A stretch of DNA of 64,000 bases from Sphyrna mokarran (Eukaryota). Every line of letters begins with the position of its first letter. Position 1 is the stretch's first letter. Positions 3,001 to 57,000 of the stretch are shown one piece after another. Location: contig JAGIQG010000026.1 in NCBI GenBank assembly GCA_024679065.1, positions 21,700,001-21,764,000 of the forward strand, written 5' to 3'. Position numbers: made by a program.

Positions 3001-6000
3001 CTGTTCTTCTCTCCTTCCCCATATCAGATGCAGTAGTTTCTCTGCATCTCCATACACAGGAGCTGTCCTCTTCTCTCTGCAAAGTACTATGTGTAAAGTT
3101 GTTGCCCTCTTCAATGGGTTTCTGTTTTTGTTTTTCTGCCTATGGCTATTAGGTCACATGGCATGTCTCTGAGCTGAAATGTTTACACAGTAAGAAATCT
3201 CAATACCAGGTTAAAGTTCAAGTTTATTTGGTAGCAAACACCATTAGCTTTGAGTGCTGCTTCTTTGTCAGGAGGGGAAGGAGCAGTGCCCTGAAAGCTA
3301 GTGGCATTTGCTATCAAATAAACCTGTTGAACTTTAACCTGGTGTTGTGAGACTTATTGTTTACTCCAGTCCAATGCTGGCATCTCCACATCCTGAAATG
3401 TTTATGCAGAATTCTGTTTGCATTAAAGTTGCACCTAATAAATAACTGTATTGCAAAGTTCAGCATTCATGCCACACATTATAGTTGAATATTATTTATC
3501 AATATTTTTCAGGTATCTGTGAGTCTTATCAAATGGAAATTTTTCAAATTGTAGCTTCTGTTCTTCACCTGGGAAATATAACCTTTCAATCAAATGACCG
3601 TGATGGTGAAAATAGCTTTGTTAATGTAAGTTCACTTTTCAACCTTAGTTTTACCACAGTTAAATCACATTTCAATATTCATCTTTAAATGCTCTCTTTT
3701 GCTAAAATTGAAGTTGGCCTATGCAAACGTTGGATGCTGAAATTAGTTGATCCATTTGTTTGGCAAAGCTTTTCTATACACATCCCCCACCACCATTTTT
3801 GTATTTGCTTAAATTACAAGCAAGTGCACTTCAAAGTAATTGGATGTGATTTGGGATGCCATGAAGCTTGCTAAGGCACCTTCATAAATACAAATCATTT
3901 CTTTAAATTATTTCAAAATTAGAATGAACCCTCTGGTCTGAAATCTTTGCAAAGGGATTAAACCTATCCATTTGCTCACAAAATTATCTCTTGTTCTGAA
4001 CTATTCCACACTGCTCTGCAGATGGATCTGGAGTGTCATTTAACCTACAGCACCTAACTTTTAAATGGTGGCCCTTAGTTGTGGATGCACCTGAATTCCA
4101 CATCAACCTGGTCAACAGTATCAACATGACACGTATTGCTATTAGTTCATCTTCATTTCAGACCTTAAGATTATGCCATACATGTGCTCTAAAAAGTGTA
4201 AGAAGTCTGACAATGCCAGGTTTAAGTCCAGCTGACTTATTTGATAGTAAACGCATAAGCTTTTGAAGTTTGCCTCTTCGTCAGGTGAGGCAAACCTCGA
4301 AAGCTTGAGTTTACTATCAAATAAATCGGTTAGACTTAAACCTGGTGTTGTCAGACTTCTTATGTTTTCCCCAGTCCAACGCCAGCATCTCCACATCTCT
4401 AAAAACTGATCAGATTTGAGTCATTGGGAAGGCCAAATAATAGATGAGTTACAAAAATGCAGTGATATACGTAATCTATTGCTGCTCAGAATAGTGAAGG
4501 TTCTCTTTGTTGAACTTTCATAGTATCACTACACTGCAGGAGGAGGCCACTTGGTGCATCTAGTCTGCACTGGCTCTCCAACAGCACACCCTACCCAAAT
4601 CCTATCCTTGTAACCCCAAGTATTTATCCCACTAGTTCCCCCAAAACTTCACATCCTGGGATACCAAGTGGCAATTTAGCATGGCCAATCAATCTAATCT
4701 AGACATCTTTGGACTGTGGGAGGAAACCAATACGGAGGTGGGGTGAAATTGTACAAACTCCATACAAAGTCACCCAAAGCTGGAATTGAACCTGGGTGCC
4801 ACTGTGCCACCCATACTTGCGTTTCCTAAATTTAAAACAATGCTTTCTATTCTGAGAACAGACTAAGCACAGCTGTGCATGACTGTTGTCCAATTATTTA
4901 TTGCAATGAGTTGAAAGAAACTTTGGTTGTTCGGGCGGGGGGTAGTGGGTGGGAAAGCATTGGGAGTATGCTCTTGCCTTCAGACTTTTATTCTTTGTAA
5001 TTTATTAAAAAGAACAGTGACCTAAATTTGTTTGTTCTTTTGGCCTGCAGTCGCAAGATAAACATATCCATCTATTCTGCAAATTACTTGGATTGGAGAA
5101 AAAGCAGTTGGCACATTGGCTTTGTCACCACAAGCTAGTTACATTAAATGAAACCTACATCAAAGCAATGACAATAAAACAGGCCACCCGTTCCAGGGAT
5201 GCTCTTGCAAAACACATTTATGGGCAGCTGTTCATCTGGATAGTGAATCAAATCAATAAAGCGTTGAGATCCTCCTTGAAGCAGCATGCCTTTATTGGAG
5301 TGTTAGATATTTATGGGTAAGAATGACCAGCTTTATGCTTGATCAAATTTTTTTAAAAAATCCATCATATTTGCTAAATTTTTAATCTGTTTTAGGTTTG
5401 AAACTTTTGACAATAACAACAGTTTTGAACAGTTTTGCATTAATTATGCAAATGAAAAGCTACAGCAACAATTTAACTTGGTAAGTTCTCTACAAGGAAA
5501 ATATTCCAAAATGCCTTTTCAACAACCTCATTACCTGCCCTAGCTCCATTTTTATCTTGTGATTCTTTGTTTAAAAATCTGTTTAAAGGTTCAAAGAGCG
5601 TTTAAACAGCAGATGATCTTTAGTCATAAATGGTGCTTTGATATTTTTGCCATCCAAGGTGCTTCCTGAGATGTAGGTTTTGCTTAAACAGGAATTTGTT
5701 TATCAGAGTTGATGAATTTGAAAGTGCTCATTTGGCGCTTAATGCAGGTTTTGGGAATAATAGATGAAAACAGCTCTCAAAGCTGTGGTGCATGGTGCAA
5801 TAAACAATAATGTTCCTTAACACTCAAATAAATCAGAATCAAAGGTCTTTTTATCCAAAATAGGTTTAAGCTGTTCCAGCTAAACAGCCTGAGTTCGTGG
5901 GCACTCGACACAAAATGGGCAGTTTCTTTGAAGGTCATAGACTGTTTTTAATGAAAGCAATAGGGATTTCGCCTGTTGACTAAAACATTGTTGGGATTTC

Positions 6001-54000: not shown

Positions 54001-57000
54001 TTGGACCTGGAAGTGACTATCACTCAAGACTGTCATGGTCTTAGCAGTTTTGCTTGTATAAAGTTGGTCATTTTAAGAAAATAAAATTGTCATGCTTGTA
54101 CTTTGAGGTCATTGTTTTAAGGTTGAGCTTAGAATTTCTCCCATTTGGTTGGAAACCCAGGGTTCATGTGTATCAGTCTTCTACCAGAATTACAGTACTA
54201 ATCGGAGGAACTCCAGGCAAGTTTCCAATGTGATAGAATGGACAATTCCATTTCTGGAGCGTATCTCACTTTTACTACCTTTTCCTTCCCTGCACCCTGC
54301 CCCCCTTCCCCCTCCCCAATAAACACAAATTCAAACCTAAAAAGTGGTTAACCCCATCAGCGCAACTAGTTTGATATTCACCTAATTGTCTCCCCTGCTG
54401 CCATTTTGTGCAATAGTGAGAAAGCACTGCTCATAAATCCATGTTTCTCATTTCAAAGAACTGGCAGATTGAGACAAAAGTCCATGTCCGTAAGGTATGA
54501 ATCGCTCAACACATTTTAGTATGTAGATGTGTTAAGTGACTTGTATTAAATACCATAGGGTATTAGAAACTTGGAATTTAGAAGTAAATTTAAAACTGTA
54601 ATACTGTATTAAAGAACTGCAAGAGTGAGATTGGGATTCTGACTTTTATTTCAAATTTTGCGTACGCCTGAACTTAGCATTAGTCTCTGTGATTTATGAC
54701 TAAATATAGCCATTTACCTCTGCTTTCAAAAGTGCAAGCAGTCATTAACAATACAAGTATGCAAGATGGCCTCTCAATTTCAGGAACCCAGGTTCGATTC
54801 CTGACAAGGTCACTATCTATCTGTGCGGAGTTTGCACATTCTCTATCTGTGTGGGTTGCTTCTCACAGGCCAGAGATGCGCAGGTTAGGTTGCCCCTTGA
54901 TGTCAGGGGATTAGCTAGAGAAAATGCATGAAGTTAAGGATATAGTACCTGGGTGGGATTGTGGTCGGTGCAACTCAATGGGTCAAATAGTCTCTTTCCA
55001 CATTATAGGAATCTATGATTCTAAGTAAATGTTCAATTTAGTTAACTGGTTGCATATTTCATTTATTTACTTTGAGCACCAGGTTGAATTTCAATTGTAA
55101 GCTCACTTTTTGTTTGAGGACAACTATCATTAGAATTGTTGGGTCATTTGGGATCTTAGGTGGTTTTCCCTGCCTTTTACAAGTTGTTCAATGCTATGGT
55201 CTGAGCAGCATTGGCAATGGCAGAATCAGCAAAATTTTTTGCTGATGATGGTGGAACATTTTAAAATATCAAGAAACAATGGCTGTTTTGTAGGTGGAGA
55301 ATCCTTCAGGAAGAATGTGTGTTTTGGAATTATTCTTCTCATCACATTCTCATTGAAAATGGGAAGCTCTTACAAGTATCTAAAGAGGAAAATATGATTC
55401 ATATGGAGGAATGAGCAGAGAATCTGCCGTTGTCGGAGTAGTAATGATCTCCTTAGCAATCCTGCGTGTAACTCCTGACCTCGTGGCACAGATCCATTTT
55501 TGTTTGTAGCCTAACTAAGTGAGCTAATAACAAATTTCAACCAGACATTGGTGCTTGTGAAGATAAAGAATTGAGGATTGCATGTCAAGAGCATGGGCCT
55601 GAATCTGATCCACTACAAAGATCTTTTAAGAGTCTCTTGATTTGGACATCTTTTATAGAAAGGCCAATCAAATTTTGTTAACCTCAAATTAAAAGGTGTA
55701 AGAGCAGATACCAGTTTGCATTTGAAAAACTGACCTGAGTTATTCTAAGCTGCAGAAGTAGAACCAGGATACACTTTCAAGAAAGTACAAGGTAACTTTT
55801 TTAGCGTGAGATTTTTCATGATAGTTTGATCAATATATTGAGTGAACTGCCAGAGATAGCAGTGAAAGCAAAAAAACTTGGCATAATTGAAATCTTTTAC
55901 TGCAACAGCAGTGGGAGTTGAATGAATACAGGGAGAGGCATTAAGATCATTCTGGATGGATGAACCGATCTATTAAAGGCTTCCTTATCAGTATTTACTT
56001 GTAAAAGAGTAGATTGGGAACTGGATAAAAGTGATGTAGTTCAGGATGCAGTAGTGGATTTTGGTTTGTGGGGAGACTAGAATTTGCATTAACAATGGAG
56101 TGAGGAAATGGAGATATTGCTCTTTTTCTTTAAAAAAAAACAAAAAAATTTGGGTGGAGCAAGCCATAGAATCAGAAAATGGGATTCTAGCATTGGTCAT
56201 AGTTGGGGTGCTGTTTGAAGTTTCTATAATCTTGTTATAGAATGGATATTGGAACCAATTAAATAGCATTTTTATTTGTATATTATTTCTGATTAGAACT
56301 CTTAAGTGATTTTTGTCAGGTACACTCCTGTTGGTGTACTGAGTAAATTTTCAGGAACTGTTAAACATTTAGACTGGCAAGCATTTGAGTTAAATTAATT
56401 TGAGATTTTGATTTTTCTTGATTTTTGAGTTGCATTTTTCTTTAAGGTTACTCTACAGTTGTCATCAAACATTCACTCTACCTGGTACTTGGGCAGTTGA
56501 GTTCTTAAACTCTTGCTCTGTTATGCCTGTCACTTCTTACTTTTCCCTACCCCATCCTGAAGATTAAAGTTTACTTGCCTGGCCGCTACTCTTGTTTTCA
56601 CTATTTTGGAGACTTTTTTCTTCCTATACAGGCTTCTCATGGACCAGTTGGATGAACAGAAGGCACAGCACATGAAAGAAGTAAAGACTTTTCAAACTGA
56701 AGCCAGAGACTTGAAAGAGAAGTTGAATAAACAGCAGAAATACTTTGCTGAAGCACTACAGCTGTCATCAGAAGCACAAATGGAAGCTGGGTTAAAGCAG
56801 GAAATTACACGTCTTACCAATGAAAACCTGGTAACATTGCAATGGATTTTTGATCTGTCTTTCTATATTTTGGAGATCAATATCCTATTTCTGGACATCA
56901 GCCTTAACATTAATCATATCGTTTGTATATTACCCTTATTTTTATGGAATGTATGTAAAATTGACATGTTGACAGTGAGTGAAGAGGAGATATGGGAATT

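What the first reader, a model, noticed from the sequence alone, without database searches (positions are those of the whole stretch)
3513..56830. Intact but divergent myosin V that may be a separate vertebrate class V paralog rather than true MYO5B
Seen: all 20 exons splice in frame, with six correctly spaced IQs. Diagnostic motor segments are MYO5B-like ([15 protein letters not shown] in a 123-nt exon). Several exon lengths (109, 94, 149 nt) and the exon C sequence look more like MYO5A as I recall them, and the tail is much more diverged than expected for an ortholog. Inference: a fourth lineage of the Va/Vb type retained in cartilaginous fish.
Basis: partly seen in the sequence, partly recalled or inferred. 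Interest (0 to 1): 0.7.

Follow-up and report, generated by a model that had tools for sequence, protein, structure and literature searches.

The report
Shark copy of fourth myosin V
The window holds 20 intact middle exons of a shark class V myosin that is a sister gene of MYO5B rather than MYO5B itself, and this fourth paralog was already described in 2018 under the name myo5bb.

Summary
On the + strand, 20 exons (3513-56830) splice in frame. All 20 acceptors are AG; 18 donors are GT and 2 are GC. They total 2906 nt, 968 codons and no stops. They encode the distal motor, six IQ motifs spaced 23/25/23/25/23, and the coiled-coil tail.

Every exon was compared on its own. All 20 are nearest to elasmobranch proteins that NCBI calls "myosin-Vb-like" or "Va-like": 67-84% summed identity, against 53-57% to true Vb and 48-54% to Va.

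Whole-protein trees of public orthologs, under two models, give (Va,(Vb,fourth clade)). The fourth clade has SH-aLRT 100. It holds chondrichthyan, coelacanth, lungfish, caecilian and turtle proteins. Eight species carry both a true Vb and a fourth-clade protein. AU tests reject a shark-only duplication (p 1e-55) and Vc orthology (p 0.0016).

Nuckels et al. 2018 (PMC6372264) named this clade myo5bb and listed elephant shark among its carriers.

The elasmobranch copies lack about 90 residues of the medial tail.

The joined 968-aa model was not assembled or searched. Synteny, and whether this genome has its own myo5b, could not be checked.

The parts
3513..3625 (+). exon 1 of the window's series (113 nt; motor domain)
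   Evidence: Pfam Myosin_head 251-280
5051..5316 (+). exon 2 (266 nt; motor, ends in DIYG with the Gly codon split, the start of switch II)
   Evidence: Myosin_head 82.2 bits
5396..5480 (+). exon 3 (85 nt; FETF... start of relay region; one extra Asn codon versus all 47 references)
9736..9876 (+). exon 4 (141 nt; motor)
11470..11592 (+). exon 5 (123 nt; [15 protein letters not shown])
13158..13241 (+). exon 6 (84 nt; motor)
19038..19172 (+). exon 7 (135 nt; variable loop before KKTVGYQ; taken by position to be loop 2)
   Evidence: no Pfam hit
20713..20810 (+). exon 8 (98 nt; motor)
22308..22394 (+). exon 9 (87 nt; motor)
25445..25553 (+). exon 10 (109 nt; end of motor, taken by position to be the converter)
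26890..27101 (+). exon 11 (212 nt; IQ1, IQ2)
27734..27890 (+). exon 12 (157 nt; IQ3, IQ4; GC donor AAG|GCAAGT)
28938..29177 (+). exon 13 (240 nt; IQ5, IQ6, start of coiled coil)
34219..34446 (+). exon 14 (228 nt; coiled coil)
36719..36812 (+). exon 15 (94 nt; coiled coil)
42219..42367 (+). exon 16 (149 nt; coiled coil)
45999..46049 (+). exon 17 (51 nt, phase 0 on both sides, cassette-like; sits where Va/Vb have about 105 residues)
   Evidence: 8 of 11 elasmobranch ortholog models carry 14-17 residues here
46420..46656 (+). exon 18 (237 nt; coiled coil; GC donor AAG|GCAAGT)
47780..47877 (+). exon 19 (98 nt; carries the clade signature EEDLRCAYDAVRVAN)
56632..56830 (+). exon 20 (199 nt; last coiled-coil segment before the globular tail, which lies outside the window)

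Best explanation
The window carries 20 consecutive internal exons of a shark gene for a class V myosin heavy chain. They encode the motor from about residue 316 onward, the six-IQ lever arm and the coiled-coil medial tail.

The gene is the ortholog of the elasmobranch genes that NCBI names 'unconventional myosin-Vb-like' or 'Va-like'. These genes, together with one gene each in elephant shark, coelacanth, lungfish, a caecilian and a turtle, form a fourth jawed-vertebrate class V lineage. That lineage is sister to MYO5B and matches the 'myo5bb' clade of Nuckels, Nice and Garcia 2018.

Shown here:
- exon structure, intact reading frame, motor and IQ motifs;
- exon-by-exon orthology;
- the position of the clade;
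- the shortened medial tail.

Inferred from what is established for class V myosins:
- the protein dimerises through its coiled coil;
- it binds calmodulin or light chains on the six IQs;
- it walks along actin carrying cargo bound to a globular tail that lies outside this window.

Its cargo is unknown. The tail lacks the segment and the D/F-type exon that Va and Vb have. By my recollection, Va and Vb use those for regulation and adaptor binding, so a different adaptor set is likely.
For: Structure. 968 codons with no stops, 20 of 20 AG acceptors and 18 GT plus 2 GC donors. Myosin_head matches 8 of 10 motor exons, and IQ matches exons 11-13. IQ spacing is 23/25/23/25/23 (plus a hand count for the sixth).

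Orthology, exon by exon.
- In 19 of 20 exons the top identity among 53 references belongs only to elasmobranch fourth-clade proteins. Exon 3 ties.
- In FastTree trees made per exon, the nearest leaf is an elasmobranch fourth-clade protein in 20 of 20. The sister group is made only of chondrichthyan fourth-clade proteins in 20 of 20.
- Summed identity is 84% to Scyliorhinus torazame P0001, 60% to Callorhinchus P0072, 53-57% to Vb, 48-54% to Va and 40% to Vc (P0129).

Clade position. The topology is (Va,(Vb,fourth)), with the fourth clade at SH-aLRT 100 under LG+G4 (53 rows) and under LG+C20+F+G4 (35 rows). Eight species have both a Vb and a fourth-clade protein.

AU tests.
- A chondrichthyan-only duplication is rejected (dlnL 377, p 1e-55).
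- Chondrichthyan fourth-clade proteins grouped with Vc are rejected (dlnL 61, p 0.0016).

Shared signature. All 13 fourth-clade rows shown have (E/D)(E/D)DL(R/K)xAYDAVx(V/I)xN, where the Va and Vb rows shown have AYxG..E(T/A/S)..NEDGEL..(A/V)YQGLK.

Literature. In passages read from PMC6372264, myo5bb is found in teleosts, gar, coelacanth, elephant shark, turtle, chicken, turkey and duck. [quoted passage not shown]
Against: - By raw identity the window is no closer to bony-vertebrate fourth-clade proteins (45-59%) than to Vb (53-57%). The deep orthology therefore rests on the trees and on one shared motif.
- A search with the coelacanth P0097 tail returned true Vb proteins, not other fourth-clade proteins, as its next-best hits at 41-45%.
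- The fourth-clade branches are long, and several rows have deviant amino-acid composition.
- Holding the whole fourth clade together with the single Vc representative costs only 24 lnL (p 0.025). The deeper position relative to Vc is weakly resolved.
- Only one Vc sequence was available, and it was identified only by its PDB matches.
- No sequence that a source names myo5bb (gar, teleost, chicken) was in the trees.
- The window's own joined model was not placed on a tree.
- Expression is untested.
Confidence: 0.85

Rival explanations
1. It is the true MYO5B ortholog of this shark, merely fast-evolving.
For: The KLYDRH and HFQKPRMSN motifs, and a 41-residue exon 5 span, match Vb. NCBI names 9 of the 14 closest hits 'Vb-like'.
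Against: - Seven chondrichthyan Vb proteins group with bony-vertebrate Vb at SH-aLRT 100, apart from the clade the window belongs to.
- Heterodontus, Carcharodon, Narcine, Pristis and Callorhinchus each have both genes.
- Shark Vb tails are 58-64% identical to bony-vertebrate Vb tails. The window's tail is 35-43% identical to Vb.
- The motifs occur in both Vb and fourth-clade rows, so they do not separate the two.
Confidence: 0.02
2. It is a duplicate of MYO5B that arose within cartilaginous fish. Its grouping with fast-evolving bony-vertebrate genes would then be long-branch attraction.
For: Long branches and deviant composition in fourth-clade rows. Raw identity to bony fourth-clade proteins is no higher than to Vb.
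Against: - The AU test rejects chondrichthyan fourth clade plus chondrichthyan Vb as one clade (dlnL 377, p 1e-55).
- The site-heterogeneous model gives the same topology.
- The coelacanth and lungfish fourth-clade branches are moderate, 0.31-0.35.
- The exon 19 signature is shared by all 13 fourth-clade rows shown and by none of the 8 Va/Vb rows shown.
- The paper reports separate synteny, with mbd3 and onecut3 beside myo5bb (passages read).
Confidence: 0.04
3. It is the shark ortholog of MYO5C.
For: Ortholog lengths of 1701-1743 aa are close to the 1741 aa of the Vc representative P0129. The medial tail is shortened.
Against: - Identity to P0129 is 40% overall, below Va and Vb.
- P0129 falls outside Va+Vb+fourth in all three trees.
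- The AU test of chondrichthyan fourth clade plus P0129 gives dlnL 61, p 0.0016.
- The motor of the catshark ortholog scores 1197-1245 bits to solved Va motors against 1090-1094 to Vc motors.
- P0129 keeps 103 residues in the segment that the sharks lack.
Confidence: 0.02
4. It is a decaying or unexpressed copy.
For: Fast-evolving tail, two non-canonical GC donors, a one-codon insertion in a conserved motor stretch of exon 3.
Against: No stops in 968 codons and all phases kept. Motor exons are 78-89% identical to orthologs in other elasmobranchs. Both GC donors have the form AAG|GCAAGT. The paper reports purifying selection in myo5bb motors (passages read).
Confidence: 0.05

Closest known systems
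myo5bb clade (Nuckels, Nice and Garcia 2018, Genome Biol Evol, PMC6372264; passages read)
   Same: A fourth jawed-vertebrate class V myosin, sister to myo5b (myo5ba). It is present in elephant shark and coelacanth, has long branches, is shorter than Va/Vb, and is often mislabelled myo5b. The clade found here contains a non-Vb, non-Va gene from those same two species.
   Different: - No sequence from that paper could be matched by accession, because its supplementary table is closed.
- No named teleost, gar or chicken myo5bb was in my trees.
- Elasmobranchs, a caecilian and a lungfish are additional carriers seen here.
- The near-complete loss of the medial-tail segment in elasmobranchs is not mentioned in the passages I read.
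MYO5B (unconventional myosin-Vb)
   Same: Sister lineage. Shares the KLYDRH and HFQKPRMSN motor motifs, six IQs and the overall architecture.
   Different: - It forms a separate clade (SH-aLRT 100).
- The window is 53-57% identical overall and 35-43% in the tail.
- Vb keeps 90-109 residues between the equivalents of exons 16 and 18, and the segment with NEDGEL..AYQGLK. The window has neither.
MYO5A (unconventional myosin-Va); solved full-length structure 7yv9
   Same: 7yv9 is the best solved-structure match of the catshark ortholog (2119 bits). Same domain order. The exon 10 span has the same length.
   Different: Next lineage out in the tree. Identity is 48-54%. The KLYNTH motor motif replaces KLYDRH. 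The medial tail is longer.
MYO5C (unconventional myosin-Vc)
   Same: Similar total length.
   Different: Identity to P0129 is 40%. It falls outside Va+Vb+fourth in all three trees.

Membership tests
Class V myosin heavy chain | Myosin motor domain | tested here: met
   Pfam Myosin_head matches 8 of 10 motor exons colinearly, profile positions 251-622 of 679. Exons 2, 3 and 4 are above the curated cut-off on their own. The N-terminal third of the motor, with the P-loop and switch I, lies outside the window.
Class V myosin heavy chain | Lever arm of six IQ motifs with alternating 23/25 spacing | tested here: met
   Spacing is 23/25/23/25/23 (for five motifs; the sixth counted by hand). Pfam IQ is above its cut-off in exons 11, 12 and 13.
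Class V myosin heavy chain | Coiled-coil dimerisation region after the IQs | tested here: inconclusive
   Exons 13-20 align with the coiled-coil tails of Va and Vb. Only weak, sub-threshold coiled-coil Pfam hits were found. No coiled-coil predictor was run.
Class V myosin heavy chain | C-terminal globular tail (DIL domain) | not testable with these tools
   It lies beyond 56830. No further exon was found up to 64000. All the full-length elasmobranch fourth-clade models listed (P0001, P0002, P0004, P0006-P0014) carry PF01843.
MYO5B orthology group | Groups inside the clade of named Vb proteins of sharks and bony vertebrates | tested here: not met
   The window's orthologs form a separate clade. 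20 Vb rows form their own clade at SH-aLRT 100. The same result holds under the mixture model.
MYO5B orthology group | MYO5B synteny, and no second myo5b in the genome | not testable with these tools
In other species a separate Vb exists.
Fourth lineage (myo5bb) | Groups with the non-Vb, non-Va, non-Vc class V genes of elephant shark and coelacanth | tested here: met
   The clade of 20 rows, including Callorhinchus P0072 and Latimeria P0097, has SH-aLRT 100. Each of the window's 20 exons falls with the chondrichthyan members.
Fourth lineage (myo5bb) | Contains sequences that a source names myo5bb (teleost, gar, chicken) | not tested
   None was retrieved. 
Fourth lineage (myo5bb) | Synteny with mbd3 and onecut3 (PMC6372264, passages read) | not testable with these tools
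   No flanking genes lie in the window.
MYO5C orthology group | Groups with Vc | tested here: not met
   P0129 is Vc by its PDB matches. It lies outside. The AU test gives p 0.0016. Only one Vc sequence was available.

The most novel reading that the evidence does not exclude
In elasmobranchs the fourth class V myosin has been remodelled into a short-tailed form. It has lost about 90 residues of the medial tail: the Ser-rich PGHRR stretch and the start of the next coil. Va, Vb, Vc and even the coelacanth and lungfish copies keep this segment. In its place stands a lineage-specific 17-residue cassette exon. The gene also has no recognisable D/F-type exon. If those segments matter for regulation and adaptor binding as they do in Va and Vb (my recollection, not tested here), the shark protein would be regulated and loaded differently from every studied myosin V.
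Probability: 0.35. Interest if true: 0.35.

Novelty: already known. Interest (0 to 1): 0.2.

Why it matters
The case is a clean example of hidden paralogy. A gene labelled 'Vb-like' or 'Va-like' in shark annotations is neither of those. It is the ortholog of a fourth class V myosin that mammals have lost, so transferring MYO5B function to it (Rab11 recycling, microvillus inclusion disease biology) would be unsafe.

The lineage has been named since 2018, yet I found the name in only three papers. In the passages I read from the main one, its function is said to be still unidentified.

For the scan this counts as a correct call on a known, under-annotated gene family rather than a discovery.

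Tried and rejected
The taxa of P0121, P0122, P0124, P0126, P0129 and P0130 stay unknown.
- The Atlas look-up of P0121 gave only generic myosin V clusters, with no taxa recorded.
- A whole-protein search with shark Vb P0055 timed out. I repeated it on residues 950-1400, as the tool advised.
- The search with the coelacanth P0097 tail was meant to collect named bony-vertebrate fourth-clade proteins. It returned almost only true Vb at 41-45%. One useful hit came out of it, the lungfish 'Vb-like' P0384.
- I first treated P0130 as a second Vc. Its PDB matches favour Va over Vc, so the AU test (fourth clade + P0129 + P0130, p 2e-5) does not test Vc. I reran it with P0129 alone.
  - Whole fourth clade + P0129: p 0.025, weak.
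  - Chondrichthyan members + P0129: p 0.0016.
- I searched the intron between exons 16 and 17 and the small one before exon 18 for remnants of the missing medial-tail segment. Queries were 12 segments from Va, Vb and fourth-clade proteins. Nothing scored above 19 bits except exon 17 itself.
- No further exon of the gene was found at 1-3512 or 56831-64000 with 120 references at E up to 5.
- Rfam gave no match at gathering thresholds.
- Searches for 'Myo5D' or 'myosin Vd' found only 5 papers, none of which (by title and start of abstract) concerns a vertebrate myosin V paralog.
- The script printed 2905 nt because I had set the end of exon 19 one base short. Corrected coordinates give 2906.
- I ran no structure or complex prediction, because none would bear on the question.

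
Full report
WHAT IS THERE

The window has no N and 35-42% G+C. Stop-to-stop reading of the + strand shows a colinear series of myosin V peptide pieces from about 3.5 kb to 56.8 kb.

tblastn with the catshark protein P0001 maps 19 pieces in order onto its residues 316-1272. The same search with all 120 proteins adds one more piece, a 51-nt exon at 45999-46049. That exon is present in the Carcharodon, Rhincodon, Chiloscyllium and Stegostoma models. The search found no further exon before 3513 or after 56830.

Reading the splice sites from the DNA gives 20 exons:
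- 20 of 20 acceptors are AG;
- 18 donors are GT and 2 are GC, both in the context AAG|GCAAGT, after exons 12 and 18;
- phases match at all 19 junctions;
- the total is 2906 nt, made of 962 whole codons plus 6 codons split across junctions, hence 968 codons with no stop.

The exons of 123, 109, 94 and 149 nt are all present.

Taken one exon at a time, Pfam places 8 of the 10 motor exons colinearly on Myosin_head (profile positions 251-622). It finds IQ above its cut-off in exons 11, 12 and 13 (19 of the 20 exon peptides were sent, since exon 17 is under 20 aa). The six IQ motifs are spaced 23/25/23/25/23. Five were found by a regex. The sixth, LQCCYRR, I counted by hand.

HOW THE MODEL WAS HANDLED

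Every comparison of the window was made exon by exon, and sums over exons are arithmetic only. Whole-protein trees use public proteins of other species.

I do not take the window for human. Its nearest relatives are elasmobranch proteins.

WHOSE GENE IT IS

Exon 13, searched alone against the large protein set, hits 14 elasmobranch clusters best, at 78-93% identity. NCBI or UniRef name 9 of them 'unconventional myosin-Vb-like', 4 'Va-like' and 1 hypothetical. The full-length models among them are 1656-1743 aa. Proteins named Va and Vb, many from the same species, follow at 63-73%.

Across all 20 exons, summed identity is:
- 84% to Scyliorhinus torazame;
- 83% to Carcharodon;
- 82% to Heterodontus;
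- 67-73% to four batoids;
- 60% to a Callorhinchus 'Va-like' protein;
- 53-57% to 20 Vb proteins;
- 48-54% to 8 Va-clade rows;
- 40% to a Vc representative.

The top identity among 53 references belongs only to elasmobranch 'like' proteins in 19 of 20 exons, and exon 3 ties. In a FastTree made for each exon, the nearest leaf is one of those proteins in 20 of 20. The sister group consists only of chondrichthyan members of that group in 20 of 20, although many single-exon supports are low.

WHERE THAT GROUP SITS

I collected three further sets of sequences:
- true Vb from sharks, rays, Callorhinchus, coelacanth, lungfish, amphibians, sauropsids, mammals and ray-finned fishes;
- unnamed 50%-identity representatives;
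- one Vc. P0129 matches solved human Vc best, in both the motor and the globular tail.

Three trees agree on (Va,(Vb,fourth clade)), with the fourth clade at SH-aLRT 100 and Vb+fourth at 99-100:
- 46 rows under LG+G4;
- 53 rows under LG+G4;
- 35 rows under LG+C20+F+G4.

The fourth clade splits into two parts. The chondrichthyan half holds Callorhinchus plus the elasmobranchs. The bony-vertebrate half holds:
- an older Latimeria 'Vb' record, P0097;
- a Protopterus 'Vb-like';
- a Rhinatrema 'Va-like';
- a Carettochelys 'Va-like';
- four unnamed representatives.

Eight species have one protein in the Vb clade and another in the fourth clade.

AU tests gave these results:
- A duplication confined to cartilaginous fish is rejected (dlnL 377, p 1e-55).
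- Chondrichthyan members grouped with Vc are rejected (dlnL 61, p 0.0016).
- Holding the whole fourth clade with the lone Vc costs only 24 lnL (p 0.025). The deep position of Vc is therefore weakly resolved.
- An earlier test included P0130. The PDB search shows P0130 is not Vc, so I do not count that test.

A feature independent of the trees supports the clade. In exon 19 every fourth-clade row shown (13 of 13) has (E/D)(E/D)DL(R/K)xAYDAVx(V/I)xN. The Va and Vb rows shown have a different and mostly longer segment with NEDGEL..(A/V)YQGLK.

CAVEATS

- Raw identity does not show the deep orthology. The window is 45-59% identical to bony fourth-clade proteins, no more than to Vb.
- The coelacanth protein's tail finds true Vb as its next-best hits.
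- Fourth-clade branches are long and several rows have unusual composition.
- No sequence that a source calls myo5bb was in my trees.

WHAT IS KNOWN

Nuckels, Nice and Garcia 2018 (PMC6372264) describe 'a previously unidentified myo5 clade', myo5bb. I read passages of the abstract, results and discussion. According to those passages:
- myo5bb is sister to myo5ba, that is, to MYO5B;
- it is attributed to the vertebrate genome duplications;
- it has long branches, is shorter (1,668 aligned codons in teleosts), and lies near mbd3 and onecut3;
- it is often labelled myo5b or left unnamed ('hidden paralogy').

The clade I recover contains a non-Va, non-Vb gene from the same two key species, so I equate the two clades. 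I could not match accessions, because the paper's supplementary table is closed.

The name myo5bb occurs in 3 papers of the library. One of them is a 2013 meeting abstract by two of the same authors, which I read in full. Searches for Myo5D or 'myosin Vd' found only 5 papers, none of which (by title and start of abstract) concerns a vertebrate myosin V paralog.

The motifs KLYDRH and HFQKPRMSN occur in the Vb rows and in the elasmobranch fourth-clade rows but not in Va, which has KLYNTH. They therefore mark the Vb+fourth pair rather than Vb alone.

The 123-nt length equals Vb's 41 residues. However, 10 of 11 elasmobranch orthologs have 42, so the match is a one-codon loss shared only with Carcharodon.

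The 109-nt exon 10 span of 36 aa equals Va (7 of 7), while Vb has 37 (19 of 20). But Callorhinchus and 5 of 8 bony fourth-clade rows also have 37. The spans of exons 15 and 16 do not discriminate. These comparisons assume conserved intron positions.

THE TAIL

Between the ends of exons 16 and 18, residue counts are:
- 90-109 in the Va rows, the Vb rows and P0129;
- 96 in the coelacanth and 99 in the lungfish fourth-clade proteins;
- 38 in Callorhinchus;
- 12-51 in the other bony members;
- 0-17 in the 11 elasmobranch orthologs.

In the window only the 17-residue exon 17 stands there. The introns hold no remnant of the missing segment: 12 query segments gave nothing above 19 bits except exon 17 itself. 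No D/F-type exon was detected between exons 19 and 20.

HOW IT LIKELY WORKS

By homology with studied class V myosins (established knowledge, not tested here), the protein is a two-headed actin motor. Each head has a lever arm of six light-chain-binding IQs. It dimerises through the coiled coil and carries cargo on a globular tail encoded beyond this window.

The Gly codon of the DIYGFE switch II motif is split between exons 2 and 3. The motif is intact when the split codon is read.

The cargo is unknown. The loss of medial-tail segments suggests adaptors or regulation different from Va and Vb.

VERDICT

Interest is low. The one point that may be new is the elasmobranch-specific shortening of the medial tail.

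Noticed in passing
window 22113-22267: A perfect tandem array, 7.8 copies of a 20-bp unit (CTCCTTTTTGGAATTTTATC) with 100% matches. It lies in intron 8 and ends 40 nt before the acceptor of exon 9.
   Followed up: no
window 27891-27896 and 46657-46662: Two GC-AG introns in one gene, both with the donor context AAG|GCAAGT. In both cases no in-frame GT donor fits the ortholog proteins.
   Followed up: partly
window 5396-5480 (exon 3): One extra Asn codon ([12 protein letters not shown]) just after switch II. All 47 Va, Vb and fourth-clade references have one residue fewer in this otherwise highly conserved stretch. It could be real or an assembly slip.
   Followed up: partly
window 39604-39795 (-), 51881-52291 (-), 58415-58738 (+): Decayed reverse-transcriptase ORF pieces (Pfam RVT_1, 24.9-31.1 bits) in introns and downstream of exon 20. 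Similar repeat-like ORFs occur elsewhere in the introns.
   Followed up: partly
window 42368-46419, and P0001-P0014: The elasmobranch orthologs, and the window's DNA, lack about 90 residues of medial tail. Va, Vb, Vc and the coelacanth and lungfish fourth-clade proteins keep this segment. Callorhinchus keeps 38 residues.
   Followed up: yes
P0084 (Rhinatrema bivittatum) and P0384 (Protopterus annectens): A caecilian 'Va-like' and a lungfish 'Vb-like' protein fall in the fourth clade. Each species also has a true Vb. In the passages I read, the 2018 paper lists the clade as absent in Xenopus and names no amphibian or lungfish carrier.
   Followed up: partly
table, P0011 and P0042 (Narcine bancroftii): The fourth-clade protein and the Vb protein of Narcine sit on contigs of identical length (375,657,673), so possibly on one chromosome. 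In the other species the two contig lengths differ.
   Followed up: no
window 16001-20000 and 56001-60000: GC skew of +0.25 and +0.27, far above the rest of the window. Cause not examined.
   Followed up: no
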